Made by a program: the position numbers and the translations under genes | Source of the DNA: Candidatus Methylomirabilis oxygeniifera | GTDB taxonomy: Bacteria; Methylomirabilota; Methylomirabilia; Methylomirabilales; Methylomirabilaceae | Length of the DNA stretch: 32,000 nt | Reading direction: 5' to 3' | Assembly: GCA_000091165.1 (NCBI GenBank) | Contig: FP565575.1 | Coordinates: forward strand, 2,430,001-2,462,000 | The notes under the pieces: model-generated | The model's database searches: none | Told to the model about the DNA's origin: nothing | What the model saw: only the letters and a program-made list of their open reading frames with translations | Shown here: piece by piece, positions 3,129-17,345 of the stretch | Layout of the letters: every line of letters begins with the position of its first letter | How positions within the stretch are numbered: position 1 is the stretch's first letter

Positions 3129-4073
3129 ATGCTCACACAGATTCTGATCGAAACGATCCAATTACTCATCGTCGGACTTGGCGCACCGCTCCTGGTGGGG
3201 CTGGTTCGGCGGGTGAAAGCCAGACTCCAGGGTCGGCGAGGGGCCGGCCTGCTGCAGCCATACGCCGATCTCCGCAAGCTTCTGGCAAAAGAGGCGGTCG
3301 TGTCGGAGACCACCTCGTGGATCTTTCGGTTTACTCCGTACCTGCTTGCGGCCACGATGCTGCTCTCCGCGCTTCTTGTCCCGCTGCTCACAACCCGGAC
3401 ACCGCTCGGCTTTCTCGGCAACATCATCGTGCTGATGTACCTGTTCCTGCTGGGCACCTTCTTTCTGGCCCTGGCGGGTCTGGATGCCGGCAGTGCGTTC
3501 GGCGGTATGGGATCGAGCCGTGAGATGGCCGTGGCCGCGCTGGCTGAGCCGACCGTAATGATTGCGATCTTCGCGATAGCCTTACGGGCCGGCAATACCG
3601 GTCTCGATGAGATCATCAGGCGCGGCGCAGCCGATTCGCTGTTGCTGCTGACCCCCGGGCATCTGCTGGCATTTATGGCGTTCTTCATCGTGGCGATTGC
3701 AGAGACTGGACGATTGCCGGTTGACAATCCTGCGACGCACCTGGAGCTGACGATGATTCATGAGGCGATGGTGCTGGAGTACTCGGGGCGGCACCTCATG
3801 CTGATCGAGTGGGCGGCAGGGATGAAGCTGCTGATCTTCCTGGCGCTGCTCTCGAACTTATTCTTTCCGTGGGGCGTTGCGCTGACGGTGACGCCGCCGG
3901 CGCTGGCGGTGGCCTTCGTCGCGTTGGTCGCGAAGGTGAGCGTGCTCGCAGTGGGGATCGCGGTGCTCGAAACGGCGGTGGCCAAGTTGCGGCTGTTCCG
4001 CCTGCCGGCGCTGCTGAGCGGATCGTTTGCGCTCGCCCTGTTGGCCGTCATCTCGTTTTTATTCGTCAAATAG
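3129..4073 (+). CDS. HyfC/HycD/NuoH-like membrane subunit
   Basis: 314-aa polytopic protein. It has the RRVKARLQGRRGAGLLQPYADLRKLLAKE loop, GSSREM, and IAETGRLPVDNPATHLELTMIHEAMVLEYSG (the NuoH/HycD E..P.D..E.E.EL signature). Confidence 0.85.
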   Translation: MLTQILIETIQLLIVGLGAPLLVGLVRRVKARLQGRRGAGLLQPYADLRKLLAKEAVVSETTSWIFRFTPYLLAATMLLSALLVPLLTTRTPLGFLGNIIVLMYLFLLGTFFLALAGLDAGSAFGGMGSSREMAVAALAEPTVMIAIFAIALRAGNTGLDEIIRRGAADSLLLLTPGHLLAFMAFFIVAIAETGRLPVDNPATHLELTMIHEAMVLEYSGRHLMLIEWAAGMKLLIFLALLSNLFFPWGVALTVTPPALAVAFVALVAKVSVLAVGIAVLETAVAKLRLFRLPALLSGSFALALLAVISFLFVK

Positions 4074-4082
4074 GTTGGGTGA

Positions 4083-4742
4083 ATGGTGACCGAACTCTTT
4101 CCAAGGCTGGTGACGTTACTCTCGTTCGCAACGCTGGGCGCGGCGTTTCTGCTGATCGTGCGCCGGGACCTCGCCGGACAGGTCCGGATATTCGCGGGGC
4201 AATCGTTGATCCTGGCCATTACCGCGGGGGTCGTCGCCGCATTCACGAGAAGCGTTGCATTGGCCAGTGTCGCGCTGGCGCTGGCGCTCTTAAAGGTAGT
4301 CGTCATTCCGCGCGTACTCAATCGCGCGGTGGCCAAGATCGGGTTACAACGGGCCGCCTTGCCGTATCTGGGCACGCCCGCGACGCTGGTGGTGTGCGGA
4401 GGCCTGGTGGTGATCGCATTTTACGTGATGGCCCCTGTCGCTGCGTCAAATCCGCTCCCTACCGCGGAGGCTATTCCGATCGCCTTTGCCGGCGTACTCA
4501 TCGGCTTTTTTGTAATGGTGAATCGCCGACGCGCACTGACGCAGATCCTCGGCTTCTTAATGCTGGAGAACGGCATATTTCTGCTTGCGCTGCTGGCCAC
4601 CTATGGGGTGCCGTTCATCGTGGAAATGGGCGTATTCCTTGATGTGCTGGTGGCCGTGCTGATCATGGAGGTATTCATCTATCGCATCAAAGAGAATTTT
4701 GATTCGACTGAGGTGGACCGATTGGGGAGGCTGAAGGGGTAA
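4083..4742 (+). CDS. HyfE-like small membrane subunit (NuoK-related)
   Basis: 219-aa hydrophobic protein containing LTQILGFLMLENGIFLLAL. Its position between the HyfC-like and HyfF-like genes matches hyf-type clusters. The stop overlaps the next start (TAATG). Confidence 0.7.
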   Translation: MVTELFPRLVTLLSFATLGAAFLLIVRRDLAGQVRIFAGQSLILAITAGVVAAFTRSVALASVALALALLKVVVIPRVLNRAVAKIGLQRAALPYLGTPATLVVCGGLVVIAFYVMAPVAASNPLPTAEAIPIAFAGVLIGFFVMVNRRRALTQILGFLMLENGIFLLALLATYGVPFIVEMGVFLDVLVAVLIMEVFIYRIKENFDSTEVDRLGRLKG

Positions 4743-6199
4743 TGCTTATCGCGCTGGTGCTGATGCCGCTGGCCGCTGCGGCCATCCTGATGCTGGTACG
4801 CCCACGGGCGTGGCTCGAGTGTATCCACGCGCTCGCGGCGCTTAGTGGACTGGCCGCCGGTCTCATGGTTGCTGCGCGGGTATGGGGGGGCGAGATGCCC
4901 ACTGCCGTCGGGGGACTGCTTCGCGCGGATGGGCTCTCGGCGTTGATGGTCGTCGTGATCACCCTGGTGGGGGCGATCGCCGCGCTGTACGGAATTGGCT
5001 ATATCCGGGCGGAATATGACGACACCCATCTGACACGCGTACGCAGTTTCTTCGCGCTGTTTCACGTCTTCATCTTTACCATGCTCCTGGCAGTCACAAC
5101 CGATAACCTCGGTATCATGTGGGTGGCAATTGAAGGAACGACATTAGCGACAGCCTTTCTGGTGAACCTGCATAACACGCCCAAGTCGTTGGAGGCAGCC
5201 TATAAATACCTCATCCTCTCTTCGGTGGGCATTGCGCTCGCCTTTATCGGTACGGCGCTGATGTATTACGCCGGCGCCTCGCGCGCCGGCGAGATTGCGG
5301 TGAATTGGACCTCTCTCCGAGCCGCCGCATCATCGCTGAATCCCCAGGTCGTCCGGCTCGCCTTCGCCTTCATCCTCATCGGCTACGGGACAAAGGCCGG
5401 CCTGGCGCCGATGCATACGTGGCTGCCGGATGCCCACAGTGAGGCGCCTGCCCCGATCAGCGCATTGATGTCCGGCGTCCTGCTCAACGTGGGACTCTAC
5501 GCAGTAATGCGTTTCAAGGTGGTGACAGACATCGCGGTCGGCGCACACTTCGCCGGCCCCTGGCTGTTAGGCATCGGGCTGCTCTCACTTACAGTGGCCG
5601 CAATCTTTCTTATTGTACCGCGCAATTACAAGCGCATGCTGGCCTATTCAAGCGTCGAACACGTGGGCGTGATCTGCTTGGGATTAGGATTTGGGGGCTA
5701 CTGGGGCGTACTGGGCGCGCTCCTGCACGTGATCAATCATGCGCTGTCAAAGTCGTTGCTGTTTATCCTGTCGGGAAATATCCTGCTGAAATATCAGACC
5801 ACCGACCTTCGCCGGGTGCGCGGACTGTTGCGGGCGTCGCCGTTGACGGCCGGCGCATTTGCAGCGGGCACGCTTGCGCTGCTGGGCCTGCCCCCCTTCG
5901 GGCTGTTCATCAGTGAGTTTCTGATCTTTCGCGCGGGCGTGGAGAGCGGACCTCTGTGGGTCGTCATTCTGGGGGTGGCGCTGCTCGCCGTCATATTCGC
6001 CGGCATGCTCGGCAGCGTGAACCAGATGCTCTACGGAGCGCCCCCGGACAATATGGAACACGGGGATCCGCTCAGGTGGTCGCTGGCGCCGCTGGTAGTC
6101 AATTTCTCCTTATTGCTTGTACTCGGGCTGACGTTCCCGCACGCAGTGGCTGAGGCCCTCGAACAGGCGCTGAGGGTGCTCGGGGTGTCCCATGCCTGA
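4742..6199 (+). CDS. HyfF/NuoM-N-like antiporter-type membrane subunit
   Basis: GTKAGLAPMHTWLPDAHSEAPAPISALMSGVLLNVGLYA and LAYSSVEHVGVI motifs. Overlaps the downstream gene by 8 nt. Confidence 0.85.
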   Translation: MLIALVLMPLAAAAILMLVRPRAWLECIHALAALSGLAAGLMVAARVWGGEMPTAVGGLLRADGLSALMVVVITLVGAIAALYGIGYIRAEYDDTHLTRVRSFFALFHVFIFTMLLAVTTDNLGIMWVAIEGTTLATAFLVNLHNTPKSLEAAYKYLILSSVGIALAFIGTALMYYAGASRAGEIAVNWTSLRAAASSLNPQVVRLAFAFILIGYGTKAGLAPMHTWLPDAHSEAPAPISALMSGVLLNVGLYAVMRFKVVTDIAVGAHFAGPWLLGIGLLSLTVAAIFLIVPRNYKRMLAYSSVEHVGVICLGLGFGGYWGVLGALLHVINHALSKSLLFILSGNILLKYQTTDLRRVRGLLRASPLTAGAFAAGTLALLGLPPFGLFISEFLIFRAGVESGPLWVVILGVALLAVIFAGMLGSVNQMLYGAPPDNMEHGDPLRWSLAPLVVNFSLLLVLGLTFPHAVAEALEQALRVLGVSHA

Positions 6200-7775
6200 T
6201 CTGAACGGTGTCGCCCGGCAGCTTCGCGCGACGGCGCTGAAGCTGACCGACCTTCGGGTGTACCCTCCGCGGGAGGTGCGAGTCAACATCGAACGGGATG
6301 AGCTACCTCCGTTTGCCGATTATGTGCGTGACAGGTTTTGCGCGAAGCCTGAACTGATCGTGGCGGAGGATACACGCGCAGAGCGCGGGGCCTTTACGTT
6401 GCGCTACCTCTTCGAACTCGAAGGCGTGGATCTGTTCATCGTCGCGTCGGCGGCAGTCCTGGAGAACGACCGTCGATTTCCGTCGCTTGCAACGCGCTGG
6501 TATCTGGCCAGTCGCTTCGAGCGCGAGATGCATGATCTGTTCGGCCTTCTACCGACCGGTCACCCCGACCTGCGTCGTCTGCCGTTGCATCAGTTCTGGC
6601 CCGCAGCCTATCACCCGCTGCTGAAGGACGCCCCATCGCCCCCTGCATTTGCGGATGATGGTACGCCCTTCCCGTTTCGCCGCGTGGAGGGCGAGGGGAT
6701 CCATGAGATCACCGTCGGCCCGGTGCATGCAGGCATTATCGAGCCGGGCCATTTCCGGTTCAGTGTCGAGGGCGAGACCATCGTGAATCTCGAGTCCCGG
6801 CTCTATTTCGTGCACAAGGGGATCGAGCGGCTCTTTGAGACAGTCCCGCTCATCCGCGGGGTGGAGCTGGCTGAACGGATTTCCGGCGACAGCAGCGTGG
6901 CGCACGCGCTCGCGTTCTGCCAGGCGCTCGAATCGCTGACGGCGCTACAGATCCCGCCTCGCGCGGCCTACCTGCGTGTGGCGCTGCTTGAATTGGAACG
7001 GCTCTACAATCACATCGCGGATGTCGGCGCGATCTGCACGGATACCGGCTTTGCGGTCGCAAATACGCATGCCATGAGGATTCGTGAAGATATACTGCGT
7101 CTGAATGCCCGATTAGCCGGCCATCGTCTGCTTCGCGGAACGCTGATCGCGGGCGGTGTGAGGTGTGACTTCACGGCAGAGCAGATCGCCGATGCGCGGG
7201 AGACGGTGAGGCGCGCAGTCAGTGACTTCGACGAGGTGGTGGAGATCGCGCTGAATAACGGTCTGGTGCTGGACCGCCTGCACGGGACAGGGCACCTGTC
7301 GAATCAGACCGCGCGCGAGCTGCAGGTCGTCGGGCCGGCGGCGCGCGCCAGCGGGATCGATCGGGATGCCAGACGGGATCATCCCTTTGCCGCGTATGCG
7401 GATCTGCCGCCGCATGTGCCGGTGTACAGTGAAGGCGATGTCTGGGCGCGACTGATGGTGCGGGTAGAGGAGGCGCGCGAGGCCGCTCATCTGATCATGC
7501 GCGCATTGGGCGAGATCCCCGAGGGTAAGGTCTCGGCGCCGCTCCCGGCATTGCCGGCGGGCGCGAGCGGGTTCGGTCTGGTTGAGGGGTGGCGCGGGCC
7601 GATCTGGCACTGGCTTGTCGCCGGCGAGCAGAATCGGCTTACGCGCGCGAAGATCAAAGATCCGTCATTCGCCAACTGGCCGGCGCTTCATTACGCCATC
7701 CTGAAAAACATCGTGCCGGATTTTCCGCTCGTCAATAAAAGCTTCAACCTGTCGTACGCGGGCAACGATTTGTAG
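6192..7775 (+). CDS. Fused NuoC-NuoD / HycE-HyfG-like large subunit lacking the [NiFe] cysteine ligands
   Basis: The N-terminal part carries FEREMHDLFGL..GHPDLRRL, as in the NuoC 30-kDa domain. The C-terminal part carries ITVGPVHAGIIEPGHFRF and LERLYNHI, as in the NuoD/large-subunit fold. SGDSSVAH (6882-6905) sits where CGxCxxxH is expected. The C-terminus NLSYAGNDL (7746-7772) sits where DPCxxCxxR is expected. Confidence 0.85.
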   Translation: MPDLNGVARQLRATALKLTDLRVYPPREVRVNIERDELPPFADYVRDRFCAKPELIVAEDTRAERGAFTLRYLFELEGVDLFIVASAAVLENDRRFPSLATRWYLASRFEREMHDLFGLLPTGHPDLRRLPLHQFWPAAYHPLLKDAPSPPAFADDGTPFPFRRVEGEGIHEITVGPVHAGIIEPGHFRFSVEGETIVNLESRLYFVHKGIERLFETVPLIRGVELAERISGDSSVAHALAFCQALESLTALQIPPRAAYLRVALLELERLYNHIADVGAICTDTGFAVANTHAMRIREDILRLNARLAGHRLLRGTLIAGGVRCDFTAEQIADARETVRRAVSDFDEVVEIALNNGLVLDRLHGTGHLSNQTARELQVVGPAARASGIDRDARRDHPFAAYADLPPHVPVYSEGDVWARLMVRVEEAREAAHLIMRALGEIPEGKVSAPLPALPAGASGFGLVEGWRGPIWHWLVAGEQNRLTRAKIKDPSFANWPALHYAILKNIVPDFPLVNKSFNLSYAGNDL

Positions 7776-7822
7776 GCTCGTGTGTCCCGAACCTTTCACT
7801 CCTTTCAAGTTCTGTTCTGACC

Positions 7823-8215
7823 CGTCATTCCGCCTGCCTGTGCGTCTCTGCACGCAGACAGGTGCTTGACACGCCTGCCCCGTACTGGATACGGGGGAAT
7901 CCAGTCGAGCCCTCTGCATACCGGCGCCTGCCCCGGACTCCGATCCGGGGTCCGCCGGGTATGACGCACTCGCGGCAAGCCGCGGGGAATGAACCCTCTG
8001 AGGATTTAAGCCTGCTGGAGGAAGTACCATCGGCTAACAACCCTTTTTCACACATCATTGCAAGCCGAAGGCGAAGCAATCTCACCGTTCTTCATGACCC
8101 GCAGAGCAAAACGGGTGGATTGCCACGCTCCCGTTGGTCGCTCGCAATGACGACGCTACCGGGCCGATCTCTCGGCGAGGACTGCAAGTACATGGGGACA
8201 CTCCCCCGGAGCCCC
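7823..8215. repeat. Array of REP-like palindromic units in the intergenic tract
   Basis: Several independent stem-loops. CCCCGTA-ctgga-TACGGGG. CCCCGGA-ctccga-TCCGGGG, nested inside CATACCGGCG...CGCCGGGTATG. The ATTGCAAGC..GCAATCTC / GGATTGC..CTCGCAATGACG unit (8057-8152). GGACACT..AGTGTCC (8196-8225). ORFs across this tract translate to typical REP junk such as ...SQ*/AMT-like endings. Confidence 0.6.
8057..8152 (+). repeat. ATTGCRAGC...GCAATCTC / GGATTGC...CTCGCAATGACG element, copy 1
   Basis: Same bipartite box arrangement and orientation as 17381-17454. Four ATTGC/GCAAT boxes form two small hairpins. Confidence 0.6.
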
Positions 8216-8236
8216 GGTAGTGTCCTAATTTGAAAG
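8216..8236 (+). repeat. Left 21-bp direct repeat flanking the low-GC island
   Basis: GGTAGTGTCCTAATTTGAAAG versus GGTAGTATCCTGATTTGGAAG at 17172-17192. 18/21 are identical and all three differences are G/A transitions. Confidence 0.6.
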
Positions 8237-8304
8237 GGCCTCCCCTGCGGGCGGCATAGGAATTGCTTGACAAGTCATGAGTTCTCGTCATGTCATGATT
8301 TTGC

Positions 8305-8334
8305 TTGACAGGGTAGCAAGAACATATATATAAA
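8305..8334 (+). promoter_or_regulatory. sigma70-like promoter candidate upstream of pyrF
   Basis: TTGACA (8305-8310), then a 17-18 nt spacer, then ATATAA/TATAAA (8328-8334). It lies about 65 nt upstream of the first ATG. TTGCTTGACA occurs twice (8263-8272 and 8301-8310). Confidence 0.45.
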
Positions 8335-8397
8335 TATCCCCAACGTGTGTGACTATATTGATTCAATATACGTGATGCCTAATTTGGAAAGGGGTGA

Positions 8398-9222
8398 ATG
8401 ATGAGTGTCAAATTAGCGTCTCCCCCATTATCCACCGAATCCGATACGGCACACAAAGAGGTCTACCGTTCCAACAAGGTCAACATGCATATCAAAGCCA
8501 ACGAGCGTTTGATCCTCGCCCTCGATGTTCCACTAGGAAGGCCGCATGGGTTAATTGAACTGTCCGATGCTCGTGCGCTCGTGGAGCAATTAGACGGTGT
8601 CGTGTCATTCTTCAAGATCGGCTGGCCGCTCTATATGGCTGGAGGGCAGGCGCTTATTCCAGAGCTCGTTAATAAAGGCAAACGGGTCTTCTTGGATCTG
8701 AAGTTCGGTGACATTCCTGAAACGATCAAGAGACTCGTGCTTGTAGCTAGAGATCATGGCGTCAGTTTTATTACAGTGAACACCAGCTTTGATGCCGTGC
8801 GGGCTGCCGTGGCAGTGCGAGGCGAATCCGATCTGAAGATTCTGACGGTAACTGTTCTCACAAGCCTAGCAGATGCGGACTTGCGGGAAATGGGCGTTGA
8901 TACCGATGTTGAGACGTTGGCTCTATACAAAGCCAAGAAGGCGAGTGAATTTTGTGATGGCGTCATTGCTTCTGGAAAGGAAGCTGCGCTCATTCGTCAG
9001 AACGTACGCAAGGATTTCTTAATTGTGACGCCCGGCATTCGGCCTGTTGGGCGTGCACACGACGATCACAAAAGGGCGACAACGCCAACTGAAGCAATCA
9101 GTGCAGGGGCCGACTACTTGGTCGTTGGACGACCCATTACGCAAGCTGAGAATCCCCGGAATGCCGCCGCTAAGATCATCACAGAGATGCAAGACGCCTT
9201 CGATGCTCTCGCCAAGCCGTGA
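8398..9222 (+). CDS. pyrF: Orotidine 5'-phosphate decarboxylase
   Basis: LILALDV, FFKIGWPLY, FLDLKFGDIPETI, TVTVLTS, FLIVTPGIRP and GADYLVVGRPI are the catalytic and phosphate-binding motifs of the PyrF family. The N-terminal 29 aa look non-homologous, so ATG 8485 (MHIKANERLILALDV) is a plausible true start. Confidence 0.9.
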   Translation: MMSVKLASPPLSTESDTAHKEVYRSNKVNMHIKANERLILALDVPLGRPHGLIELSDARALVEQLDGVVSFFKIGWPLYMAGGQALIPELVNKGKRVFLDLKFGDIPETIKRLVLVARDHGVSFITVNTSFDAVRAAVAVRGESDLKILTVTVLTSLADADLREMGVDTDVETLALYKAKKASEFCDGVIASGKEAALIRQNVRKDFLIVTPGIRPVGRAHDDHKRATTPTEAISAGADYLVVGRPITQAENPRNAAAKIITEMQDAFDALAKP

Positions 9223-9313
9223 TAAGTTGTAGCTTTATCGTCGCATTGGTTGCGGTCTAGCGAGATAAGGTTGCCACAACATCTCCTGGTTCTCTACCTC
9301 TGTAGTGGAATCC

Positions 9314-9553
9314 TTACAGCAACTCCTCCAAAGCCCATATTCTACTAGCCACCCCTGCCGCCATCGCTGGCGTCACCCGCAGGCTCCCATGAATCCGCAC
9401 AAAATTGTAGTGGGCAAAATGCAAGGCTAACGCATCCTTGAGATTTCGCAGGGACTTTGAAAACGCATTCGTCAGTCTTGTGAACCGCCGCATCTGCATC
9501 CGCATGGTCAAGTTCTGCCGCTCGATATACGACGTTGACACATAGCGAGGATC
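9314..9553 (-). pseudogene. IS1-family transposase, C-terminal fragment only
   Basis: DPRYVSTSYIERQNLTMRMQMRRFTRLTNAFSKSLRNLKDALALHFAHYNFVRIHGSLRVTPAMAAG matches the conserved C-terminus of IS1-type (InsB-like) transposases (ERxNLxxRxxxxRxxRxxxxFSKS). No N-terminal or catalytic part is found upstream in any frame. Confidence 0.65.
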
Positions 9554-9730
9554 GCGGGGGTCCCGTTGATTGGCGTGGATACCACCTCCGCGACTCGTTG
9601 GGGAGAGTAACGGCCCGGACCTGGATTCTCGGCCTGGCAATGCTGGTCGATACGCGGGGCGCCATGAGGGCGGCTGCTAGCGTTTGATGTTTCCATTCGT
9701 CAAGGCTCTGCATAGTGACCTCACGCGAGT

Positions 9731-12271
9731 CTATTCCAGCAATACCTCGTTCAGCTTGGCTTCCCATTCGTCCTCGTCCAGAACCTCGAAGCGGAGCACC
9801 TTGTCTTTCATCTCAAGCCCGAGTTCGTTCCAGTTCCGGGACTTCGCCTGCCGGGTGCAAATGTCGAACACCTTGCGGATGTAATTGGTCTTGGCGTTGT
9901 CCTTCAGGTGCAGACCCTTGGTTTCAACCACGTAAACGCGCTCGTAATCCGTGTGAGTGGTCCTGTCGGTTGCCGTGAAAATAAAGTCTGGATAAATCCG
10001 GTGCTCCCGCCATCCCTGGATCGAGTAGTCATGCCTTGCGCGATTTCGGAACCAGAAGAAAAGCCGATGCTGGTTCTCTAGATACCAGGCAACCGCTTTC
10101 TCGGTCTCGTTGAAGTCATCCTCCGGTACCGCCTCGTAAAGACTGAACTCAAGCTGCCCACCCTTCTCCCTTGTCAGACGCTTTGAAGTTGGCTTGATAG
10201 CAATAGATTTCGGGAAAGACCAATCGAGGTTGTTGCCGATGATCAGGAAACGAAGCTCGTCCTTTTCCAGCATCGAACAGAAAACCCGCTCGGCCAGTCG
10301 GTCTTTCTCGGCTTCAAGTTGCTTCCGCAGTTCTTCGATCAGGAAAACAAAGTTATTGGCAATAAGCCGCTCAGTATCCAGCTTGCCGCCTATCTTACGG
10401 AAATGGTTCAAGACCTGCTGGGCGAATTCGTGTGCTTGCCAGGGGTTCGGCACGACGTCACCGATCTGTCGCGTCATAAAGACCGGATCAACGCGGATAC
10501 CGCCTTCCCTCAAATCGTGAATGCCTCTGGCTTCAATCACTCGATGCCTGTCATCGGTCAGCGTGACGCCGATTTCAACGTCTTTCTCCTCGTACTCGGA
10601 AAGCGTCAATTGCAAGACCGGCGTCAACGTCACTTCATCCCACGGAATCCGAGCCGCAATATCCATGTCGTAGTTGACGGGCCTCCAGCCGTGGCTGTTC
10701 CTGACCATGAAAACTGGGAGAATCGCTCGACCGGCAGCCATCTTGAAGCGTTCGCGCATGTCGAAAAGCTGGTCCATGCCGTCGCCGGGCATACCGCCGT
10801 ATTCGTCTTCTGTGGCGATATGTCCGCGCAAATCGCCCAAACCTTCCTGGGCAAAGCCGTCACGAATGCTTTCCAACAATGCATTGGCGCGTTGCTGAAA
10901 GCAAAACACATAGCTTTCGTCGAGATCCCGGACTTGGGTCTTTCGCGCGTAGGGTTGTCTCAGAATACGACCGACAAGCTGGGTCAAGGCGTTCTGTGAG
11001 GATGGATTCGTCAGAATCGCGAGCACGTAAGCGAACGAGCAGTCCCAACCCTCTTGAAGGGCCTGCTTGGTGATGATGTAGCGGATTTTGCAGTCCCGAC
11101 CGAGCAGCCCGCCTATATCGTCAACTTCCTTGAGTTCATCCTTTTCGCTCGTTTTGACCGCGATCTGTTCCGCCGGGACGCCCATAACCTTCGTCAAATG
11201 TTCCCGGACTTGCTCCGAATGAATGTACCGTCCGCCCTCTTGATTCTTCCCTGTGCGCTCCACTTGAATCAGGCAGATCGGGCGGATGTATATGCCCGTG
11301 TTCGCCTCGTATTCCTTGGCCTTTTCCTCCAGCACGTTCCGCTTGTTCACTCCGGCAAGCAGGGTGTCTTTCCAGTCCGGGCTTGCCTTGTTTACGACGT
11401 GGAGATCCAACTTGATCATTTCCTCATGGTGCAATTCTCGGCCTGCGATGTCCACGAGGATATTGCTTTGAACCGGCGTCGCCGAAAGTTCGGCAACTAG
11501 GCAAGGATTAAACCCGCGCAAGGTCTCCTGTGCCCCATCACTGTAAGCCTTGTGCCCTTCGTCGAGTATAATAACCGGCGAAAGTGTTCTGAGAGTGTTC
11601 CCCAATGACGTTTTGATTTGCCGACCCCAAAAGCCGCTTTGCTTCTCGTAGGTGTCCAGATTTGGGAAGCGTGTGAGCGTGGCCTCTTGCGCGATGATGT
11701 CATCCTCTGGCGGAAAAAAGTCCTGAAAACCGCCGCTGTCCTTGAAGACCTTCAAGGTCTCTTTCGTCTTCCGGTTGGCCGATGGAAGCATGAGCATCAG
11801 TACGATAAGATTTTCCTGCACATCCAGCGGGGCAAAGTGGTCCGTCTTTTCGAGAATCAGCGTGTGCCCACCGCTTGCCAGGTCCAGATGTTGGCGGTAC
11901 GGGTGATCCCGGTCTTTCAGGCACTGAATCGTCTGGCGGTAAATCTGTGTTGTCGGGACAATCCAGAGCACAAGCCCCGTCTGGCGTTTCCGGTAGATCG
12001 TATTCACGAGGTCAATCGTCTTGACCGCCAGCAGCGTTTTGCCACCCCCGGTCGGAAGTTTAAGACAGAATGTCGGTAATGCCTGGCCTAGTCCATTTTT
12101 GTGCGGCAGATACCGGCGCGGAAGTTTAGCCTTCTCCCATGCCTTCGCCGCAAAGTCAAAGGCCATGTCGGGATCAGTTATGCCTTCGGCCTTCTTCTTC
12201 AGATCGGCCAGAAGTTCAAGGTAACTCCTAATCCCGGCTAACGCTCTTTGCTGGTATTCCTTCAGTCGCAT
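9731..12271 (-). CDS. Type III restriction enzyme Res-like subunit (SF2 helicase plus C-terminal PD-(D/E)xK-like nuclease)
   Basis: Helicase motif I LPTGGGKT (aa 72-79), motif II ILDEGH (aa 235-240), motif III LSATP, motif V-like QEGWDC, and motif VI QLVGRILRQ. The C-terminal YPDFIF...VVETKG is a PD...ExK nuclease-like motif. The start lies 3 nt downstream of the mod stop. Confidence 0.8.
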   Translation of the reverse strand: MRLKEYQQRALAGIRSYLELLADLKKKAEGITDPDMAFDFAAKAWEKAKLPRRYLPHKNGLGQALPTFCLKLPTGGGKTLLAVKTIDLVNTIYRKRQTGLVLWIVPTTQIYRQTIQCLKDRDHPYRQHLDLASGGHTLILEKTDHFAPLDVQENLIVLMLMLPSANRKTKETLKVFKDSGGFQDFFPPEDDIIAQEATLTRFPNLDTYEKQSGFWGRQIKTSLGNTLRTLSPVIILDEGHKAYSDGAQETLRGFNPCLVAELSATPVQSNILVDIAGRELHHEEMIKLDLHVVNKASPDWKDTLLAGVNKRNVLEEKAKEYEANTGIYIRPICLIQVERTGKNQEGGRYIHSEQVREHLTKVMGVPAEQIAVKTSEKDELKEVDDIGGLLGRDCKIRYIITKQALQEGWDCSFAYVLAILTNPSSQNALTQLVGRILRQPYARKTQVRDLDESYVFCFQQRANALLESIRDGFAQEGLGDLRGHIATEDEYGGMPGDGMDQLFDMRERFKMAAGRAILPVFMVRNSHGWRPVNYDMDIAARIPWDEVTLTPVLQLTLSEYEEKDVEIGVTLTDDRHRVIEARGIHDLREGGIRVDPVFMTRQIGDVVPNPWQAHEFAQQVLNHFRKIGGKLDTERLIANNFVFLIEELRKQLEAEKDRLAERVFCSMLEKDELRFLIIGNNLDWSFPKSIAIKPTSKRLTREKGGQLEFSLYEAVPEDDFNETEKAVAWYLENQHRLFFWFRNRARHDYSIQGWREHRIYPDFIFTATDRTTHTDYERVYVVETKGLHLKDNAKTNYIRKVFDICTRQAKSRNWNELGLEMKDKVLRFEVLDEDEWEAKLNEVLLE

Positions 12272-12274
12272 CCG

Positions 12275-14041
12275 TCACCGCGTGAGTTCGTAAATCTCAT
12301 AGGGCAACTGCGCAAAATCAATCCGAAACTGGTCAAGGTGTTCTTGGTCCAGATACTTGGTCGGTGCGAAGACCAGCCGACGTTTGTCCTTCTTTAGGGG
12401 CGGCAGACTCTTCGCCATGTCCAGCGTCAATGCCAAATTTTTCAACTTCGCAACGTCGGGCTCATAGAAAAGGAAAACCTGGTAATTCCGACTCTCGCCG
12501 ATGAAGCGCCTCTTTTCGTTAATTGCCCTCTCGTCGAATTCCTCGCCGGTCGCCGTGTAGAAAACGTAACGGGCAAGTTCTTCGTAGGTCGGCAAGCCGT
12601 TGCCATCGAGGATGCTTTCAAGTTCGATGGCCTTGCCGAGCTTGAAGAAGCTGAACGAACCGCCGAGGCCCTTTCTCAGAGCCTCGTCCTTCGATATCGG
12701 CACACCCTTGATTACGCGCCGAACACGCTCCGCTGTAATGGAATCCGCATAGTCTTCGCACTCAACCAGAATGAAGCGGCGAGAGCCCTTGTCGGACTCA
12801 TTCAAAGCAAGGACGGCGTGGCCGGTAGTGCCAGTGCCAGCGAAGGAGTCAAGAACAAGGGCGCGTTGGTTTCCTTGAGTGACATATCGAATCAGACGAG
12901 CAAGAACCTCATGGTCTTTGGGATTCTCGAACACTTTCTTGCCGAAAATGCTGACAAGCACGTTTGTTGCCTGCAAAGCGCTCCTGTAAAAGTAACTCCC
13001 CGCAACCTGGATGCCGATATCCGATGCGTCCTCTTCTTCGCCATTTCCGTTACTCTCAGGAGACAAAGAGCGCACGAGATACGTTTTCCGAATGGGTGGT
13101 TCTGTGTGATCCTCGCGGAAGACGACAACGCCAGCGGCAATCATCTCATTCATCTTCTCAATCGTGGCATATCGCCAGCCACCTTCCGGCACCACACAAG
13201 GTTTGCGTGTCTTGGGATGGATTACATCGTAAGAAGGACCGCCGCCGCCCGGCCATGACATATTGTCATCACGCCACACGCCATTATCATCGACATTTCC
13301 GTACCGCGAATGCTTCTTCGATGGGTGGTTCTTGGGGAGTTGTTTGTAGAAGTCACGTAATCCTTCCTGAATAGCATTGCTGTCGCTGCCATGTAGCGCA
13401 CGAAGGCGAAGGTATTCGTCCTGAATCTCTTTCGCGCCCGGCTTGTCTTCGCGCCAAATGGTTTTGCGCTGTTTAAGCGTGTCCATCGACCGGGCATAAA
13501 TCAGGATGTACTCATGGCCCACGGAAAACAGTTTGGCATCGTTTTTTCGGCCCTTCTCGCAGACCAATTGGGCAATGAAATTCTCCTCGCCGAAAACCTC
13601 GTCCATGAGACAACGAAAATGGTGCGCCTCGTTGTCGTCAATCGAAACCATAATGACACCTTCGCTCTTCAGTAGGTCTTTAAGAATCTTCAGCCGGGGC
13701 ATCATCATGCAGAGCCACTTGTCATGTCGGGTCAGGTCCTCTCGGTCAACGACCTTGCCCAGCCAGTCCTGCATCATGGGCGAATTAACGCTGTCATTAT
13801 AGGCCCACTTTTCATTGCCCGTGTTGTACGGGGGATCAATGTAGATACAGTCGATCTTCCCGGCGTAAAGCGGAAGGAGCGCCTTCAGTGCCTTAAGGTT
13901 ATCGCCGTAGATAATCAGGTTGTCATGCAGAGTCACCTTGTCCGTCAGGCTCTTGGCCTTGACCGGGACAAGTTCGTGATACTTCACTAGCAAATGATGA
14001 TTCTGCACGAACGTTTTGCCCTTAAACTGTAGTTGCGCCAT
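12275..14041 (-). CDS. Type III-like Mod DNA methyltransferase (beta-class N6A/N4C)
   Basis: Motif IV DPPY (aa 69-72, IYIDPPYNTG) precedes motif I FAGTGTT (aa 400-406), which is the beta permutation. A long variable region between them is consistent with a target-recognition domain. The mod-then-res gene order is typical of type III systems. Confidence 0.8.
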   Translation of the reverse strand: MAQLQFKGKTFVQNHHLLVKYHELVPVKAKSLTDKVTLHDNLIIYGDNLKALKALLPLYAGKIDCIYIDPPYNTGNEKWAYNDSVNSPMMQDWLGKVVDREDLTRHDKWLCMMMPRLKILKDLLKSEGVIMVSIDDNEAHHFRCLMDEVFGEENFIAQLVCEKGRKNDAKLFSVGHEYILIYARSMDTLKQRKTIWREDKPGAKEIQDEYLRLRALHGSDSNAIQEGLRDFYKQLPKNHPSKKHSRYGNVDDNGVWRDDNMSWPGGGGPSYDVIHPKTRKPCVVPEGGWRYATIEKMNEMIAAGVVVFREDHTEPPIRKTYLVRSLSPESNGNGEEEDASDIGIQVAGSYFYRSALQATNVLVSIFGKKVFENPKDHEVLARLIRYVTQGNQRALVLDSFAGTGTTGHAVLALNESDKGSRRFILVECEDYADSITAERVRRVIKGVPISKDEALRKGLGGSFSFFKLGKAIELESILDGNGLPTYEELARYVFYTATGEEFDERAINEKRRFIGESRNYQVFLFYEPDVAKLKNLALTLDMAKSLPPLKKDKRRLVFAPTKYLDQEHLDQFRIDFAQLPYEIYELTR

Positions 14042-14052
14042 GAAGACCTCGC

Positions 14053-17000
14053 TTAATCATTGTGGGCAAACCGGTATTTGCGCTCCCGCGCAAGAAATGC
14101 ATCCTTCCCGCCTTCAAGAATCTTGGTTACCCGTTCGCGCACGCTCTCATTATCGATGCCACCTTCCCCGGCAATGTGTCCCCTGATTTGAGGAAGCCCA
14201 TCTTCGGGGCTTTCTCTGGGTTCAGTGTCCAGAACGACGATTTTTTCACTTTCGGCGTTGACCAGCATATTGGCGTTATGGGTTGCAAAAATGATCTGTT
14301 GCTGGTGCTTCAGCTCTTGAATGGCCGGCAGAATGTCATTTGTGATGAATGCGTTGTCGAGGTCGTCTTCAGGTTGGTCAATCACCAGCAACCCATCGGT
14401 CTGCGCGAGCAAAATCAGGAAAAGTGCCGTTGCCTTTTGCCCAACGGATGCTTGCTGAATCGAGATGTAGTCTTCGGTATCAACTTTACGCCGCAATTCC
14501 ATGTTCACCGAGTCCGGGACGTACTGACATAGCAGCCGGCCGATTTGTTTGTCATCAAAGCTCGTCATCAAGTCCACCACTTTGGCAAGGATCGGCCCGG
14601 CCCACGAGCATGCCGTCGGTCCCTTGTCGGGGACGGTTCGTCCCAGGGTCTTGTCTTGGCCGTGCTCAAAAACAGCAAGCATGTAGTCCGCAAGTTCGGT
14701 CCACAATTCCGCGGGATGCGAGGACAAGGAACGAGCGGGCACTTCCTTTCGGATAGCTATCTCAAGCTGCTCTGCGTCTCGGCTGTTGAACTTGCGGCCA
14801 TCCTTGACGTACCCCTGAAAGTCCGAAATTGCCCGCCGGATGTCACCGGCATGGACAACCCTCATTCGCACGCGCTGCTTTGTGCTCGTTGTCAGGGCAT
14901 CGGCTAAGTTCACGTAGATCTCGCCCTCCTCGGATCGGCATTGCCGCAAACGGGAGACCAATTCGCGTCGCTGTGTACGTGCTTGGTTCAGCCGGGTATC
15001 CAGTTCGTCAAAGTGCGAGATGCGCGAGTCAATTTCCTGCAGCCGGGCCTGAAGAGGCTCAAGAAGAGTGAGGTTGATCTTATTGGCCTCCATCTCTTTC
15101 TTGGCTTCGCCGTATGCCACGGAATGCTCGGCGATTCGTTCGGTTATCAGCGCGTTCTCTGTGCTCTGCGCCAGAGCATCGGTATTTTTCAGCCAGGAAG
15201 TTGCCACGCCTCTGAGGGCAGCAATTAGGTCATCCACCTGCTTGAGAGCGGCGGTGCGCACGGTCAAAAGAGAGGATTCCGCGCCCGTTTGAGTATCAGG
15301 CAACGTCTTTGATGCGCGCCTCTTCTTATCCTCTATCGCTTTGACGGCCTTAGTCTGTTCGGCGTGGATGTCGCTCAGGGCAGCAAACAGATCGTTTCGT
15401 GCCGTTTCAAGAAGCGTGAACTGCTGATGTGACTGAAATGCCGGATGTGCAGCGCGACTCTTAATCTTAAGAAGTTCCTCGTTGAGGCGTGCGCGCTCCG
15501 CTACCAAACGCGGCTTCTGGATGAGTTCCAGTGCCCATGATGCCATATCCACAGAGAGTTTTTCGATTTCGTCCGCGAGTTGACGCGCTTGGCGCTCCTT
15601 CGCGTCCACCTGTGAGAGCTGGTCGGACTTCAGAAAGGAAAAGAGGTTGACTCCGCCCCGCCGTTCCGGGTCGAGCGAGAAAAATGACTCGTCACGGACT
15701 ATGTTGGCAAGTTCGCGTTGACCGAAAAATCTGAGATTCAACAGAGCCGACGGAGATCGCGTCGAGACCGGAACCCCGCCTTCGCAGCGTTCGTCCGCGC
15801 ATTCGAGGATTTCTGGTGGACCTTCTCCTTTTCGCCGGATGCGGTAGAACTTCTGACCGCCTTTAACGGAAAGGTCGATTTCTGTTTCGGGCAAGAGTGT
15901 GCCATCGGTCTTGTCCTCTTTCCGAAGCCATAAAATACCTTTATTTGGGCGGTCATACGTTTCACCGGCGCGCTGGTATTGGCAAGCGTGGGAAACGTAT
16001 TCGAGGAGGCAGGATTTGCCAGTGCCTCGTCCCCCTATGAGGCATGTCATGTGTGGGTTGAAGTCCAGTTGAAGATCGTCAAAGAAAACGGTTTTTCGGA
16101 CCCGCATACGGAGAATGGTCCAGTCTGGATCATGAAATATTGCTGGGGAAAGGAATGTCTTGTTGTTGAGGAGTGCCTGCCGAACTCCTTCAATCGTGAA
16201 ACTACCGAGTTTCACATAAGAAAGCATCGCAGGCTGGAGAGCGTCAAAGGTGCGCGCGTCTGAGGTCTGCAACCATGCAACGGGTGCGTCGGTGTAGTCT
16301 TCGAGCTCACCGTTGAGAACACGCTTAGTAAAATCATCCAGCTCAGTGTATGGCTTGCTTATTATGAAGCCATCGGCTAGTCCGACAACTTGACGGAAAA
16401 TGTTGCGGAGTCGGGTTGCCGTGTCTCGGTCTTCAAGGATGCCTTTGTGGCCAGTAGCAACAACAAGGGCAATGAGTCGAGAGCGGAAGCGGTCATGCGC
16501 TCGGTCCAACAGGCTACAGAGGTTCAATCTGCTTTCATGCCATCGCCCCTGTTGAAGTTCCAGACTCTCGTGGACACGGGTGTCCAGGTCATTGACCTCG
16601 TTGTCGTCCGGGTTTGCCAAAAGGATGACTTGGATTTGGTCGGATGAGGTTAGCTCATAACCGGGGAATACAACCGGGACATCTTGTCGTCCTGCTGCCA
16701 ACATGCGGCGCGCAACATCCCGTACGGTCTTTGCGCCACCGTGAAAGATGCTGTTGTGCTGTGGTATGCCAATAACCTGTCGACCCGACTGGAAAACTCG
16801 GGGCAAGTAATCCTCTTCAATGAACTGATCCAATGGCTTGTTGCCGGTCGGGTCTTGCCAGTCTGGGTGAGCGTGCAGGTGAAAATCACAGGCATAAGGG
16901 CGAGCGCCCAGCTTTTCCCGGTCACTGTCCCGAAATGAAACTCTCGAGTTATTCCTTGTCACTGCAAGACTCCTCATGGTCAAAATGTTAAGTCCACAGT

Positions 17001-17064
17001 GTAACCGGTCTTTCGCACAAGTGAAAAACCAGAGAGCCGAATGAAGCAAAACCCTGTGGGCCAC
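14053..17064 (-). CDS. PHP-domain phosphoesterase fused to an ABC/SMC-like ATPase with a long coiled-coil insertion
   Basis: N-terminal DFHLHAHPDW (HxH at aa 62-64), IPQHNS, FPGYELTS and ATGHKG resemble the PHP metal-ligand pattern. Walker A is GGRGTGKS (aa 344-351, nt 16012-16035). A heptad-rich, charged region spans roughly aa 480-720. A signature-like SVGQKATALFLILLA is followed by Walker B LLVIDQPEDDLDN (aa 892-903) and IIFATHNANMLV. The GTG at 17064 opens the ORF; ATG 16977 (MRSLAVT...) is an equally plausible start. Confidence 0.75.
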   Translation of the reverse strand: MAHRVLLHSALWFFTCAKDRLHCGLNILTMRSLAVTRNNSRVSFRDSDREKLGARPYACDFHLHAHPDWQDPTGNKPLDQFIEEDYLPRVFQSGRQVIGIPQHNSIFHGGAKTVRDVARRMLAAGRQDVPVVFPGYELTSSDQIQVILLANPDDNEVNDLDTRVHESLELQQGRWHESRLNLCSLLDRAHDRFRSRLIALVVATGHKGILEDRDTATRLRNIFRQVVGLADGFIISKPYTELDDFTKRVLNGELEDYTDAPVAWLQTSDARTFDALQPAMLSYVKLGSFTIEGVRQALLNNKTFLSPAIFHDPDWTILRMRVRKTVFFDDLQLDFNPHMTCLIGGRGTGKSCLLEYVSHACQYQRAGETYDRPNKGILWLRKEDKTDGTLLPETEIDLSVKGGQKFYRIRRKGEGPPEILECADERCEGGVPVSTRSPSALLNLRFFGQRELANIVRDESFFSLDPERRGGVNLFSFLKSDQLSQVDAKERQARQLADEIEKLSVDMASWALELIQKPRLVAERARLNEELLKIKSRAAHPAFQSHQQFTLLETARNDLFAALSDIHAEQTKAVKAIEDKKRRASKTLPDTQTGAESSLLTVRTAALKQVDDLIAALRGVATSWLKNTDALAQSTENALITERIAEHSVAYGEAKKEMEANKINLTLLEPLQARLQEIDSRISHFDELDTRLNQARTQRRELVSRLRQCRSEEGEIYVNLADALTTSTKQRVRMRVVHAGDIRRAISDFQGYVKDGRKFNSRDAEQLEIAIRKEVPARSLSSHPAELWTELADYMLAVFEHGQDKTLGRTVPDKGPTACSWAGPILAKVVDLMTSFDDKQIGRLLCQYVPDSVNMELRRKVDTEDYISIQQASVGQKATALFLILLAQTDGLLVIDQPEDDLDNAFITNDILPAIQELKHQQQIIFATHNANMLVNAESEKIVVLDTEPRESPEDGLPQIRGHIAGEGGIDNESVRERVTKILEGGKDAFLARERKYRFAHND

Positions 17065-17171
17065 CTGAGAAGCGTATATAAAAGGAGTGGACGGCGGGAG
17101 ACCCTTTCGCCCACAAGATGAGGATAATGATACGTCAAACGATACTCCCCTTCAAGCTGGAACAGGCGGAT

Positions 17172-17192
17172 GGTAGTATCCTGATTTGGAAG
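17172..17192 (+). repeat. Right 21-bp direct repeat flanking the low-GC island
   Basis: GGTAGTATCCTGATTTGGAAG, 18/21 identical to 8216-8236. Confidence 0.6.
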
Positions 17193-17230
17193 TAGGTGCA
17201 CTCACGAGATCTTCAAGTTAGGATACTACC
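17172..17230. repeat. Perfect 11-bp inverted repeat / long hairpin at the island's right edge
   Basis: GGTAGTATCCT (17172-17182) and AGGATACTACC (17220-17230) are exact reverse complements separated by 37 nt. The stem can extend imperfectly (TTGGAAG / CTTCAAG). Confidence 0.7.
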
Positions 17231-17285: not shown

Positions 17286-17345
17286 TTAGAACACCCCCTC
17301 ACCCACACCCTCTCCCCGAAATGGGGGCGAGGGGAAGGGAGGGAT
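17286..17345. repeat. G/C-rich REP-like unit
   Basis: CCCTCACCCACACCCTCTCCCCGAAATGGGGGCGAGGGGAAGGGAGGG. It contains GGGGCGAGGGG, the reverse complement of CCCCTCGCCCC in the 912-1060 element. Confidence 0.5.

What the first reader, a model, noticed from the sequence alone, without database searches (positions are those of the whole stretch)
9731..17064. Three-gene operon coupling a PHP/ABC-ATPase to a type III-like Mod-Res pair: candidate composite defence system
Three minus-strand genes are separated by only 11 nt and 3 nt, in the order PHP-ATPase, then Mod, then Res. Canonical type III R-M systems need only Mod and Res. Here a 1003-aa protein with a predicted phosphoesterase (PHP) head and an SMC/RecN-like ATPase is apparently co-transcribed as the first gene. 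As I recall, a stand-alone PHP+ATPase protein was reported as a single-gene antiphage system (ppl, Gao et al. 2020). I am not aware of a description of a fixed operonic fusion of such a protein with a type III-like R-M module. The module could be a back-up nuclease or sensor, or the three proteins could form one modification-dependent machine, analogous to BREX or DISARM adding ATPases to methylases.
Basis: partly seen in the sequence, partly recalled or inferred. Interest (0 to 1): 0.85.

Follow-up and report, generated by a model that had tools for sequence, protein, structure and literature searches.

The report
Type III restriction operon with add-on nuclease
A normal-looking type III restriction-modification gene pair in Candidatus Methylomirabilis oxyfera is probably co-transcribed with a separate PHP-nuclease/SMC-like ATPase defence gene, and this is a loose, swappable combination of two known modules rather than a fixed new three-protein machine.

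Summary
Three minus-strand genes are separated by 11 nt and 3 nt: a PHP + SMC/Rad50-like ABC ATPase, a type III Mod and a type III Res. They sit alone between pyrF and a two-component system. Gene 1 more likely starts at 16962 (969 aa) than at 17064 (1003 aa).

The interpretation as a fixed composite system is not supported. Seven other neighbourhoods of close homologues of the ATPase (54-81% identity) contain no Mod-Res. Thirty-eight loci with close relatives of this Res (mostly 55-87% identity) contain no such ATPase, although many of those contigs are short. Those Mod-Res pairs often carry other cassettes instead, or none. Mod and Res keep all canonical motifs.

The ATPase belongs to the Ppl/TrlF superfamily. 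It scores 345.7 bits against a TrlF cut-off of 350.

Across 85 other TrlF-family loci, about 24-28 have the gene on the same strand as, and next to or inside, a methylation-based system (type I, IIG, III, BREX or Hma/BR-like). The position and strand bias is strong, and these contexts are scattered across the tree.

Best reading: a stacked two-layer defence operon, and a new example of the known habit of restriction operons to host accessory effectors. Looser functional coupling remains possible. Interest is moderate.

The parts
14053..16962 (-). PHP-nuclease + SMC/Rad50-like ABC ATPase gene (969 aa; the longest ORF extends to the GTG at 17064, giving 1003 aa). It belongs to the Ppl/TrlF superfamily, in a clade that lacks the TrlG partner.
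   Evidence: ORF. GAGGAG Shine-Dalgarno-like site before the GTG at 16962. P0001 is 100% identical and 969 aa. NCBIfam TrlF gives 345.7 bits against a cut-off of 350, and Ppl 130 against 1000. PADLOC Ppl 4.6e-34. AlphaFold pLDDT 86.7.
16138..16962 (-). PHP (polymerase/histidinol-phosphatase) phosphoesterase domain, residues 1-275. Candidate metal ligands are H28/H30 (16873-16881), H69, E103, H172 and D235.
   Evidence: Alignment A1 shows H69, E103 and D235 invariant. The domain model has pLDDT 94.6. Foldseek matches EndoQ, RNase AM and PsfC at probability 1.00.
16012..16035 (-). Walker A / P-loop GGRGTGKS (residues 310-317).
   Evidence: Invariant in 30 sequences of A1. Coordinates.
14884..15621 (-). 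Long antiparallel coiled-coil insertion between the two ATPase half-heads (about residues 448-693).
   Evidence: DSSP helices 448-693 in the model. SMC, MukB, JetC and Rad50 matches.
14269..14448 (-). ABC signature SVGQKATA (14425-14448), Walker B / D-loop IDQPEDDLD (14356-14382) and H-loop ATHNAN (14269-14286).
   Evidence: Invariant columns S839, G841, Q842, D862, Q863, E865, D869 and H895. Coordinates.
14042..14052 (-). 11-nt junction gcGAGGtcttc, carrying a ribosome-binding site for mod.
12275..14041 (-). Type III Mod (588 aa), a beta-class N6-adenine methyltransferase with DPPY at residue 69 and FAGTG at residue 400.
   Evidence: Pfam N6_N4_Mtase 9.8e-28. PADLOC MTase_III 1.9e-151. Motifs.
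12272..12274 (-). 3-nt junction (TGA-cgg-ATG) between mod and res.
9731..12271 (-). Type III Res (846 aa), an SF2 helicase with PTGGGKT at residue 75, DEGH 237, SAT 263 and GRILR 434, plus a C-terminal PD...ExK nuclease motif (YPDF 760, ETKG 783).
   Evidence: Pfam ResIII 7.7e-13. PADLOC REase_III 5.4e-174 over residues 50-839. Motifs.
17127..17155 (-). Promoter-like site TTGAAG-17-TATCAT upstream of gene 1. This is a consensus match only.
   Evidence: The number of such sites in the region is not above the shuffle expectation.
17172..17230 (.). 17-nt inverted repeat (88% complementary, 25-nt spacer) immediately upstream of the promoter-like site. It may be an operator.
   Evidence: I8

Best explanation
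The block is a two-layer defence operon built from two separable, already known modules.

Layer 1 is a canonical type III restriction-modification system. Mod methylates its site on host DNA. The Mod-Res complex uses ATP to find unmodified sites and cuts with the Res PD-ExK nuclease.

Layer 2 is a stand-alone PHP-nuclease fused to an SMC/Rad50-like ABC ATPase, from the Ppl/TrlF superfamily. By analogy with Ppl, it would act on DNA ends as a metal-dependent nuclease gated by nucleotide binding.

The genes are probably transcribed together from a promoter upstream of gene 1, so the cell acquires and expresses both layers as one unit. The partnership is evolutionarily labile. It is specific to this M. 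oxyfera locus and is one instance of a family-wide tendency of TrlF-like genes to lodge in operons of methylation-based restriction systems.

Shown: gene structure, domains, motifs, folds, and the lack of conservation of the trio. Inferred: co-transcription, nuclease activity, and independence of the two layers.
For: - Tight junctions with a ribosome-binding site, and no terminator-like site between the genes on the minus strand.
- Mod and Res carry every canonical motif and match type III models nearly end to end.
- Gene 1 has a PHP fold plus an SMC-like head and coiled coil, and it sits in the Ppl/TrlF superfamily.
- Close ATPase homologues occur without Mod-Res: next to unknown genes (81% identity), Zorya ZorAB (76%), a type IIG enzyme in an integrase-bearing element (65%), or alone (54-56%).
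- No TrlF-family ORF was found in 38 loci with close Res relatives. About half of the informative ones carry other cassettes between mod and res (HTH-Peptidase_M78 + DUF4411, or NYN), and the rest carry none.
- In the NJ tree of 86 TrlF-family proteins, restriction contexts are scattered over all three clades, which implies many independent insertions.
- The trio is the only cargo between pyrF and a histidine kinase. Its GC is 0.52-0.54 against about 0.58-0.63 in most flanking genes.
- A review reports Ppl as a single-gene, NTP-inhibited, 3'-OH-end-dependent ssDNA exonuclease (PMC12904381).
Against: - The 11-nt spacing and shared strand could reflect more than co-carriage.
- Across the family, restriction components make up 13 of 77 immediately upstream genes, all on the same strand, and none was found at seven or more genes away on either side. 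That is more ordered than random clustering in a defence island and hints at selection for linkage.
- A distant TrlF gene (with TrlG and a HEPN gene) lies between close homologues of this very Mod and Res in L069.
- No expression or activity data exist for this locus.
- Many metagenomic contigs in the reciprocal test are short.
Confidence: 0.62

Rival explanations
1. Functionally coupled second stage or guardian. The PHP-ATPase is not part of the restriction enzyme but depends on it in one of two ways. Either it loads on the DNA ends that Res cleavage creates and degrades restricted phage DNA, preventing repair or recombination escape. Or it fires as a back-up when the R-M system is blocked, as PrrC does with EcoprrI and PARIS does with Ocr.
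For: - Strong same-strand, immediately adjacent placement of TrlF-family genes beside or inside type I, IIG, III, BREX and DUF1156/DUF499 systems in about 24-28 of 85 loci, from many independent insertions.
- Examples: hsdM-hsdS-TrlF-TrlG-hsdR (L074), hsdR-TrlF-TrlG-hsdS-AAA-hsdM on IncC plasmids, and Mod-TrlF-TrlG-HEPN-Res (L069).
- Ppl is reported to need 3'-OH ends (PMC12904381). Restriction would supply such ends.
- Guardians embedded in R-M loci are an established concept (PMC12707154; PMC12839542).
Against: - Close homologues of this ATPase clade occur with no restriction system nearby, so any coupling is facultative.
- I ran no matched control with other defence genes to show that the enrichment exceeds ordinary defence-island clustering.
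- BREX is described as restricting without cleavage (section title in PMC12707154), which does not fit an end-supply model.
- There is no experimental evidence.
Confidence: 0.27
2. One reading: the three proteins form one obligate, modification-dependent machine, a BREX- or DISARM-like composite in which the PHP-ATPase is a core subunit.
For: Operonic arrangement with 11-nt and 3-nt gaps. The same TrlF-Mod-Res order recurs in Arthrobacter L050.
Against: - The trio is absent from all close relatives of either partner.
- L050 has a 151-nt gap, its Mod is only distantly related (E 2.4e-33), and its TrlF belongs to a different clade.
- Gene orders differ in every type III case: Mod-TrlF-TrlG-x-Res, Mod-Res-TrlF, TrlF-Mod-Res.
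- Mod and Res are complete on their own.
- No BREX or DISARM core gene is present in the island.
Confidence: 0.05
3. Gene 1 is a housekeeping SbcCD/Rad50-like DNA-repair enzyme that merely happens to lie next to an R-M system.
For: SMC/Rad50/RecN-like head and coiled coil, fused to a nuclease domain.
Against: - Patchy distribution.
- Lower GC3 than the flanking nuo, kinase and regulator genes.
- Presence on many plasmids and in integrase- or Tn7-linked elements.
- Neighbours are Zorya, BREX, type I/IIG/III R-M, and Schlafen-like TrlG.
- The best family matches are defence families, Ppl and TrlF.
Confidence: 0.04

Closest known systems
Classical type III restriction-modification systems (EcoP15I/EcoP1I type; Mod + Res)
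   Same: mod lies directly upstream of res. Mod is beta-class, with DPPY before FxGxG. Res is an SF2 helicase with a C-terminal PD-ExK motif. Both match PADLOC type III models nearly full-length.
   Different: An extra 969-aa gene lies 11 nt upstream in the same apparent operon. The recognition site and cleavage behaviour are unknown.
Ppl (Gao et al. 2020 single-gene PHP + ATPase antiphage protein)
   Same: Same architecture of an N-terminal PHP nuclease with an ABC-type ATPase. It is the best PADLOC hit (4.6e-34). Close homologues of the window protein also occur as solitary genes.
   Different: Not an orthologue: NCBIfam Ppl_antiphage scores 130 bits against a cut-off of 1000, and the best-scoring stretch lies in the C-terminal ATPase region. 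Here the gene is operonic with an R-M pair.
TrlF of the Photorhabdus temperature-restriction locus trlR-trlF-trlG (PMC7554251); NCBIfam NF045780
   Same: End-to-end match to the TrlF model (residues 59-998, E 9e-103). About 25% identity to annotated TrlF proteins along the whole length.
   Different: The score is just under the curated cut-off (345.7 against 350). The window clade never has the Schlafen/AlbA_2-HATPase_c_4 partner TrlG, which follows TrlF in 36 of 85 other loci. The window clade keeps an HxH first PHP motif where most aligned TrlF-like sequences have Q/L-V-H or lack it.
Accessory or back-up effectors embedded in restriction-type operons (PrrC in EcoprrI; OLD-ABC/TOPRIM, HEPN and Schlafen modules in BREX/BR loci; PARIS as an R-M guardian)
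   Same: A nuclease-plus-ABC-ATPase defence gene sits on the same strand in or at the edge of a methylation-based restriction operon. Relatives of this Mod-Res pair host other such cassettes. The concept is described in PMC12707154 and PMC12839542.
   Different: Here the effector is a PHP nuclease on an SMC-like ATPase, the host system is type III, and the gene sits upstream rather than between the subunits. No triggering mechanism is known. I found no paper naming this pairing.

Membership tests
Type III restriction-modification system | Mod: N6-adenine methyltransferase of the beta class (motif IV DPPY N-terminal to motif I FxGxG, with the target-recognition region between them) | tested here: met
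   DPPY at residue 69 and FAGTG at residue 400. Pfam N6_N4_Mtase 9.8e-28. PADLOC MTase_III 1.9e-151.
Type III restriction-modification system | Res: SF2 helicase motifs plus a C-terminal PD-(D/E)xK endonuclease | tested here: met
   GGGKT 75, DEGH 237, SAT 263, GRILR 434, YPDF 760 and ETKG 783. PADLOC REase_III 5.4e-174 over residues 50-839.
Type III restriction-modification system | mod immediately upstream of res, co-oriented | tested here: met
   3-nt gap, TGA-cgg-ATG.
Type III restriction-modification system | ATP-dependent cleavage requiring unmethylated, inversely oriented sites; hemimethylation by Mod | not testable with these tools
   Needs enzymology and methylome data.
Ppl (anti-phage protein Ppl, NF042955) | Score above the curated equivalog cut-off | tested here: not met
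   130.4 bits against a cut-off of 1000; the best stretch covers residues 833-993.
Ppl (anti-phage protein Ppl, NF042955) | PHP nuclease domain fused to an ABC-type NTPase in one polypeptide | tested here: met
   Fold matches to the PHP nucleases EndoQ and RNase AM and to SMC/Rad50 heads. Motifs.
TrlF family AAA-like ATPase (NF045780) | Score above the curated equivalog cut-off | tested here: inconclusive
   345.7 bits against a cut-off of 350, E 8.9e-103, aligned over model positions 8-944 of 944.
TrlF family AAA-like ATPase (NF045780) | Operon partner TrlG (SLFN_AlbA_2 + HATPase_c_4), as in the Photorhabdus TRL locus | tested here: not met
   No such gene is present in the window. TrlG is absent from all seven contexts of the window clade, but present at +1 in 36 of 85 other loci.
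BREX / DISARM-type multi-gene methylation-dependent systems | Core genes (PglZ, BrxC, BrxL; or DrmA, DrmB, DrmC) next to the methylase | tested here: not met
   The island holds only the three genes between pyrF and a histidine kinase. There are no PADLOC hits to these cores.
R-M-embedded guardian / back-up effector (PrrC-like logic) | Effector gene located within or directly abutting the R-M operon on the same strand | tested here: met
   11-nt gap on the same strand. Family-wide bias in position and strand.
R-M-embedded guardian / back-up effector (PrrC-like logic) | Effector kept silent by the R-M complex and activated when restriction is inhibited or has acted | not testable with these tools
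   Requires genetics and biochemistry.

The most novel reading that the evidence does not exclude
PHP-SMC-like nucleases of the TrlF/Ppl superfamily, with or without the Schlafen-like TrlG, are dedicated second-stage partners of methylation-based restriction systems of many types (I, IIG, III, BREX, Hma/BR). They would either feed on the DNA ends that restriction creates or fire when restriction is blocked. On this reading, the M. oxyfera operon is a minimal, TrlG-free version of that partnership in which Res cleavage licenses the PHP exonuclease.
Probability: 0.25. Interest if true: 0.7.

Novelty: new member of a known kind. Interest (0 to 1): 0.4.

Why it matters
As a single locus it is a modest result: a type III R-M system and a Ppl/TrlF-like gene, both recognisable with current databases, sharing an apparent operon.

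The broader pattern found while checking it is more useful. Roughly a quarter to a third of the sampled TrlF-family genes sit on the same strand beside or inside restriction-type operons of at least five kinds. This includes type I systems on widespread IncC resistance plasmids. In the papers I could search, nobody has tested TrlF as a defence gene or asked why it travels with restriction systems.

The M. oxyfera trio is compact: three genes, no TrlG, and complete motif sets. That makes it a convenient construct for testing whether an end-dependent PHP nuclease cooperates with, or backs up, a restriction enzyme.

Tried and rejected
- Pfam alone did not detect the PHP domain. This was resolved with the family alignment and structure prediction.
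- A sequence search of the PDB with gene 1 found nothing. The full-length fold search returned only SMC-like heads, so the N-terminal domain was modelled separately.
- Literature: 'TrlF' returns only the Photorhabdus paper. The bacterial Schlafen preprint does not mention TrlF, TrlG or PHP. The BREX survey reports Schlafen and OLD-ABC back-up modules but no PHP. The ABC-ATPase classification by Krishnan et al. 2020, which may describe such operons, is not held.
- A mobile-element origin for the island was considered. No tRNA gene, no flanking direct repeats and no integrase were found, so the insertion mechanism is unknown.
- All M. oxyfera assemblies carry the identical arrangement, so there is no within-species variation to exploit.
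- GC3 differs only mildly between gene 1 (0.60) and Mod/Res (0.64/0.67). This cannot decide between joint and separate acquisition.
- My gene calls in GC-rich loci are crude. In L053, for example, the TrlF ORF runs on upstream. Context counts are therefore approximate.


Full report
**Observation**

The window carries three consecutive minus-strand ORFs: 14053..17064 (1003 aa, GTG), 12275..14041 (588 aa) and 9731..12271 (846 aa). The junctions read TAA-gcGAGGtcttc-ATG (11 nt, with a ribosome-binding site) and TGA-cgg-ATG (3 nt). The consensus scan finds no terminator-like site on the minus strand between the genes. It finds one promoter-like site (TTGAAG-17-TATCAT, 17155-17127) upstream of gene 1, but such sites are no more frequent here than in shuffled sequence.

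The most likely start of gene 1 is the GTG at 16962. It is preceded by GAGGAG. It gives the 969 aa of the identical NCBI protein from a Candidatus Methylomirabilis MAG, and it matches the 964-971 aa of the homologues.

The block is the only cargo between pyrF and a histidine kinase / sigma-54 regulator pair. Its GC is 0.52-0.54, against about 0.58-0.63 in most flanking genes. No tRNA gene, integrase or flanking direct repeat marks the insertion.

**What the three proteins are**

Mod and Res are an ordinary type III pair.
- Mod matches PADLOC MTase_III at 1.9e-151. It has DPPY at residue 69 and FAGTG at residue 400.
- Res matches REase_III at 5.4e-174. It has all SF2 motifs (GGGKT, DEGH, SAT, GRILR) and a C-terminal PD...ExK motif (YPDF 760, ETKG 783).

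For gene 1, Pfam sees only ABC/SMC ATPase pieces. NCBIfam aligns the protein end to end with the TrlF family AAA-like ATPase model: E 8.9e-103, 345.7 bits against a cut-off of 350. The related Spaf_1101 and Ppl models score more weakly (Ppl 130 against 1000). The best PADLOC hit is Ppl at 4.6e-34.

A 30-sequence alignment shows invariant PHP-type ligands (H69, E103, D235), and the window clade has an HLH first motif. It also shows the invariant Walker A, signature, Walker B/D-loop and H-loop motifs of an ABC ATPase.

AlphaFold models are confident. The full-length model (pLDDT 86.7) resembles MukB, Smc, JetC and Rad50 heads with a long coiled coil. The first 275 residues (pLDDT 94.6) match the PHP-fold nucleases EndoQ, RNase AM and PsfC at probability 1.00.

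**Is the trio a conserved unit? ATPase side**

The closest homologues form a small clade. Their neighbourhoods are:
- 81% identity: followed by three unknown genes.
- 76%: followed by Zorya ZorA/ZorB.
- 65%: followed by two small ORFs and a type IIG Eco57I-like enzyme, in an integrase-bearing element.
- 56%: alone, next to an IS110.
- 55%: next gene on the opposite strand.
- 54%: alone.
- 54-55%: two contigs too short to be informative.

None has Mod-Res.

**Is the trio a conserved unit? Res side**

A metagenome scan returned 38 loci encoding relatives of this Res, mostly at 55-87% identity. An HMM of the ATPase family finds no hit in any of them. This includes about a dozen loci with at least 2 kb upstream of mod.

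About half of the informative loci instead carry other cassettes between mod and res. These are an HTH-Peptidase_M78 protein with a DUF4411 protein, or a small ORF with a NYN-domain protein. The rest have mod abutting res.

**Family-level pattern**

A scan of one genome per species returned 80 more TrlF-family loci at about 25% identity. I called ORFs, clustered the neighbours and annotated representatives.
- In 36 of 85 other (non-redundant, non-window) loci, the gene is followed by TrlG (SLFN_AlbA_2 + HATPase_c_4). This is the partner known from the Photorhabdus temperature-restriction locus (PMC7554251).
- Whether or not TrlG is present, about 24-28 loci have the ATPase gene on the same strand as a methylation-based restriction system, within four genes of it.

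| System type | Loci | Identifiers |
|---|---|---|
| Type III-like Mod | 7 | L019, L046, L050, L053, L069, L072, L080 |
| Type I | about 10 | for example hsdM-hsdS-TrlF-TrlG-hsdR in L074 |
| BREX / PglX / type IIG | about 7 | for example PglX...TrlF-TrlG-PglZ-BrxL in L067 |
| DUF1156/DUF499 (Hma/BR-like) | at least 2 | L091, L092 |

Annotated IncC plasmids show hsdR-TrlF-TrlG-hsdS-AAA-hsdM beside Tn7-like genes.

Restriction components make up 13 of 77 immediately upstream genes. All but one of those found anywhere are on the same strand, and none lies seven or more genes away on either side. In an NJ tree, these contexts are scattered through all three clades.

The type III cases have different orders:
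- TrlF-Mod-Res in the window and in Arthrobacter L050. L050 has a 151-nt gap, a distant Mod and a different TrlF clade.
- Mod-TrlF-TrlG-HEPN-Res in L069.
- Mod-Res-TrlF in L053 and L080.

The association is therefore recurrent and polyphyletic. It is not tied to type III, and it is not obligatory.

**Mechanism**

The best-supported reading (about 0.6) is a stacked operon of two self-sufficient layers. One is a standard type III enzyme. The other is a Ppl-like nuclease-ATPase. [quoted passage not shown]

The main rival (about 0.27) is facultative coupling. Either restriction cuts supply the ends the PHP nuclease needs, or the ATPase acts as a back-up when restriction fails. The second option follows the PrrC/EcoprrI and PARIS precedents, and the back-up effector layers described for BREX (PMC12707154; PMC12839542). 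The bias in position and strand favours some selective linkage. The many restriction-free homologues show it cannot be obligatory.

An obligate three-subunit machine (about 0.05) and a housekeeping repair role (about 0.04) are poorly supported.

**Comparison and novelty**

Each part is recognisable with current resources, and restriction operons hosting accessory effectors is an established theme. I found no paper describing a PHP-ATPase with a type III system, or testing TrlF in defence. One potentially relevant survey could not be read. PADLOC 2.0 has no TrlF-TrlG system; canonical TrlF also hits only Ppl, and only partially.

I therefore rate the locus a new member of a known kind. Interest is moderate (0.4), mainly because the compact trio offers a clean test bed for the family-wide link between restriction systems and TrlF-like genes.

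**Limits**

- Context counts rest on my own crude ORF calls and small HMMs.
- Metagenomic contigs are often short.
- No matched control with other defence genes was run.
- Co-transcription and all activities are inferred from sequence.

Noticed in passing
window 17172-17230: A 17-nt inverted repeat (GGTAGTATCCTGATTTG / CAAGTTAGGATACTACC; 88% complementary, 25-nt spacer) lies just upstream of the promoter-like site of the three-gene block. It may be an operator for a regulator.
   Followed up: no
window about 17290-17345: A G/C-rich imperfect palindrome (cccttcccctcgccccc...ggggagagggtgtgggtgaggggg) lies in the divergent intergenic region between gene 1 and the histidine kinase gene.
   Followed up: no
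window 8398-9222: pyrF has GC 0.52 and GC3 0.55. This is as low as, or lower than, the defence genes, and far below the neighbouring nuo, kinase and regulator genes (GC3 0.71-0.76). The low-GC stretch therefore extends beyond the three genes.
   Followed up: partly
The GTG at 16962 has a GAGGAG Shine-Dalgarno-like site and matches the length of all homologues.
   Followed up: yes
L093 3602-5286; L098, L099, L114 and L128 likewise; L116 1752-2681, L117: Close relatives of this Mod-Res pair often carry a cassette between mod and res. It is either an HTH + Peptidase_M78 (IrrE/ImmA-like, PADLOC RmrA-like) protein with a DUF4411 protein, or a small ORF with a NYN-domain protein. The mod-res junction of this lineage looks like an insertion hot spot.
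   Followed up: partly
L136 (NZ_CP099750.1, IncC plasmid) 4011-14781: On clinical IncC plasmids of Klebsiella and E. coli, a TrlF gene and a TrlG-like 'RNA-binding' gene lie inside a type I R-M operon (hsdR-TrlF-TrlG-hsdS-AAA-hsdM), next to Tn7-like transposition genes.
   Followed up: partly
L091 6508-17377; L092 likewise: TrlF-TrlG is inserted between a DUF1156 methyltransferase and a DUF499 protein, which looks like an Hma/BREX-related system.
   Followed up: partly
L072 7261-17458: A type III-like Mod is followed by TrlF, then an 880-aa TPR + VRR-NUC protein and a 915-aa helicase-like protein. This is an unusual variant in which the nuclease seems to be separate from the helicase.
   Followed up: no
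L005 5156-10968 (and L006, L007): The 76%-identical homologue of the window ATPase lies 266 nt upstream of ZorA/ZorB (Zorya) genes.
   Followed up: no
L001 10956-15006: The 65%-identical homologue is followed by two small ORFs with no family match (151 and 119 aa) and a 1065-aa type IIG Eco57I-like enzyme. The element also carries an integrase, HTH_17 and AAA_25 genes.
   Followed up: partly
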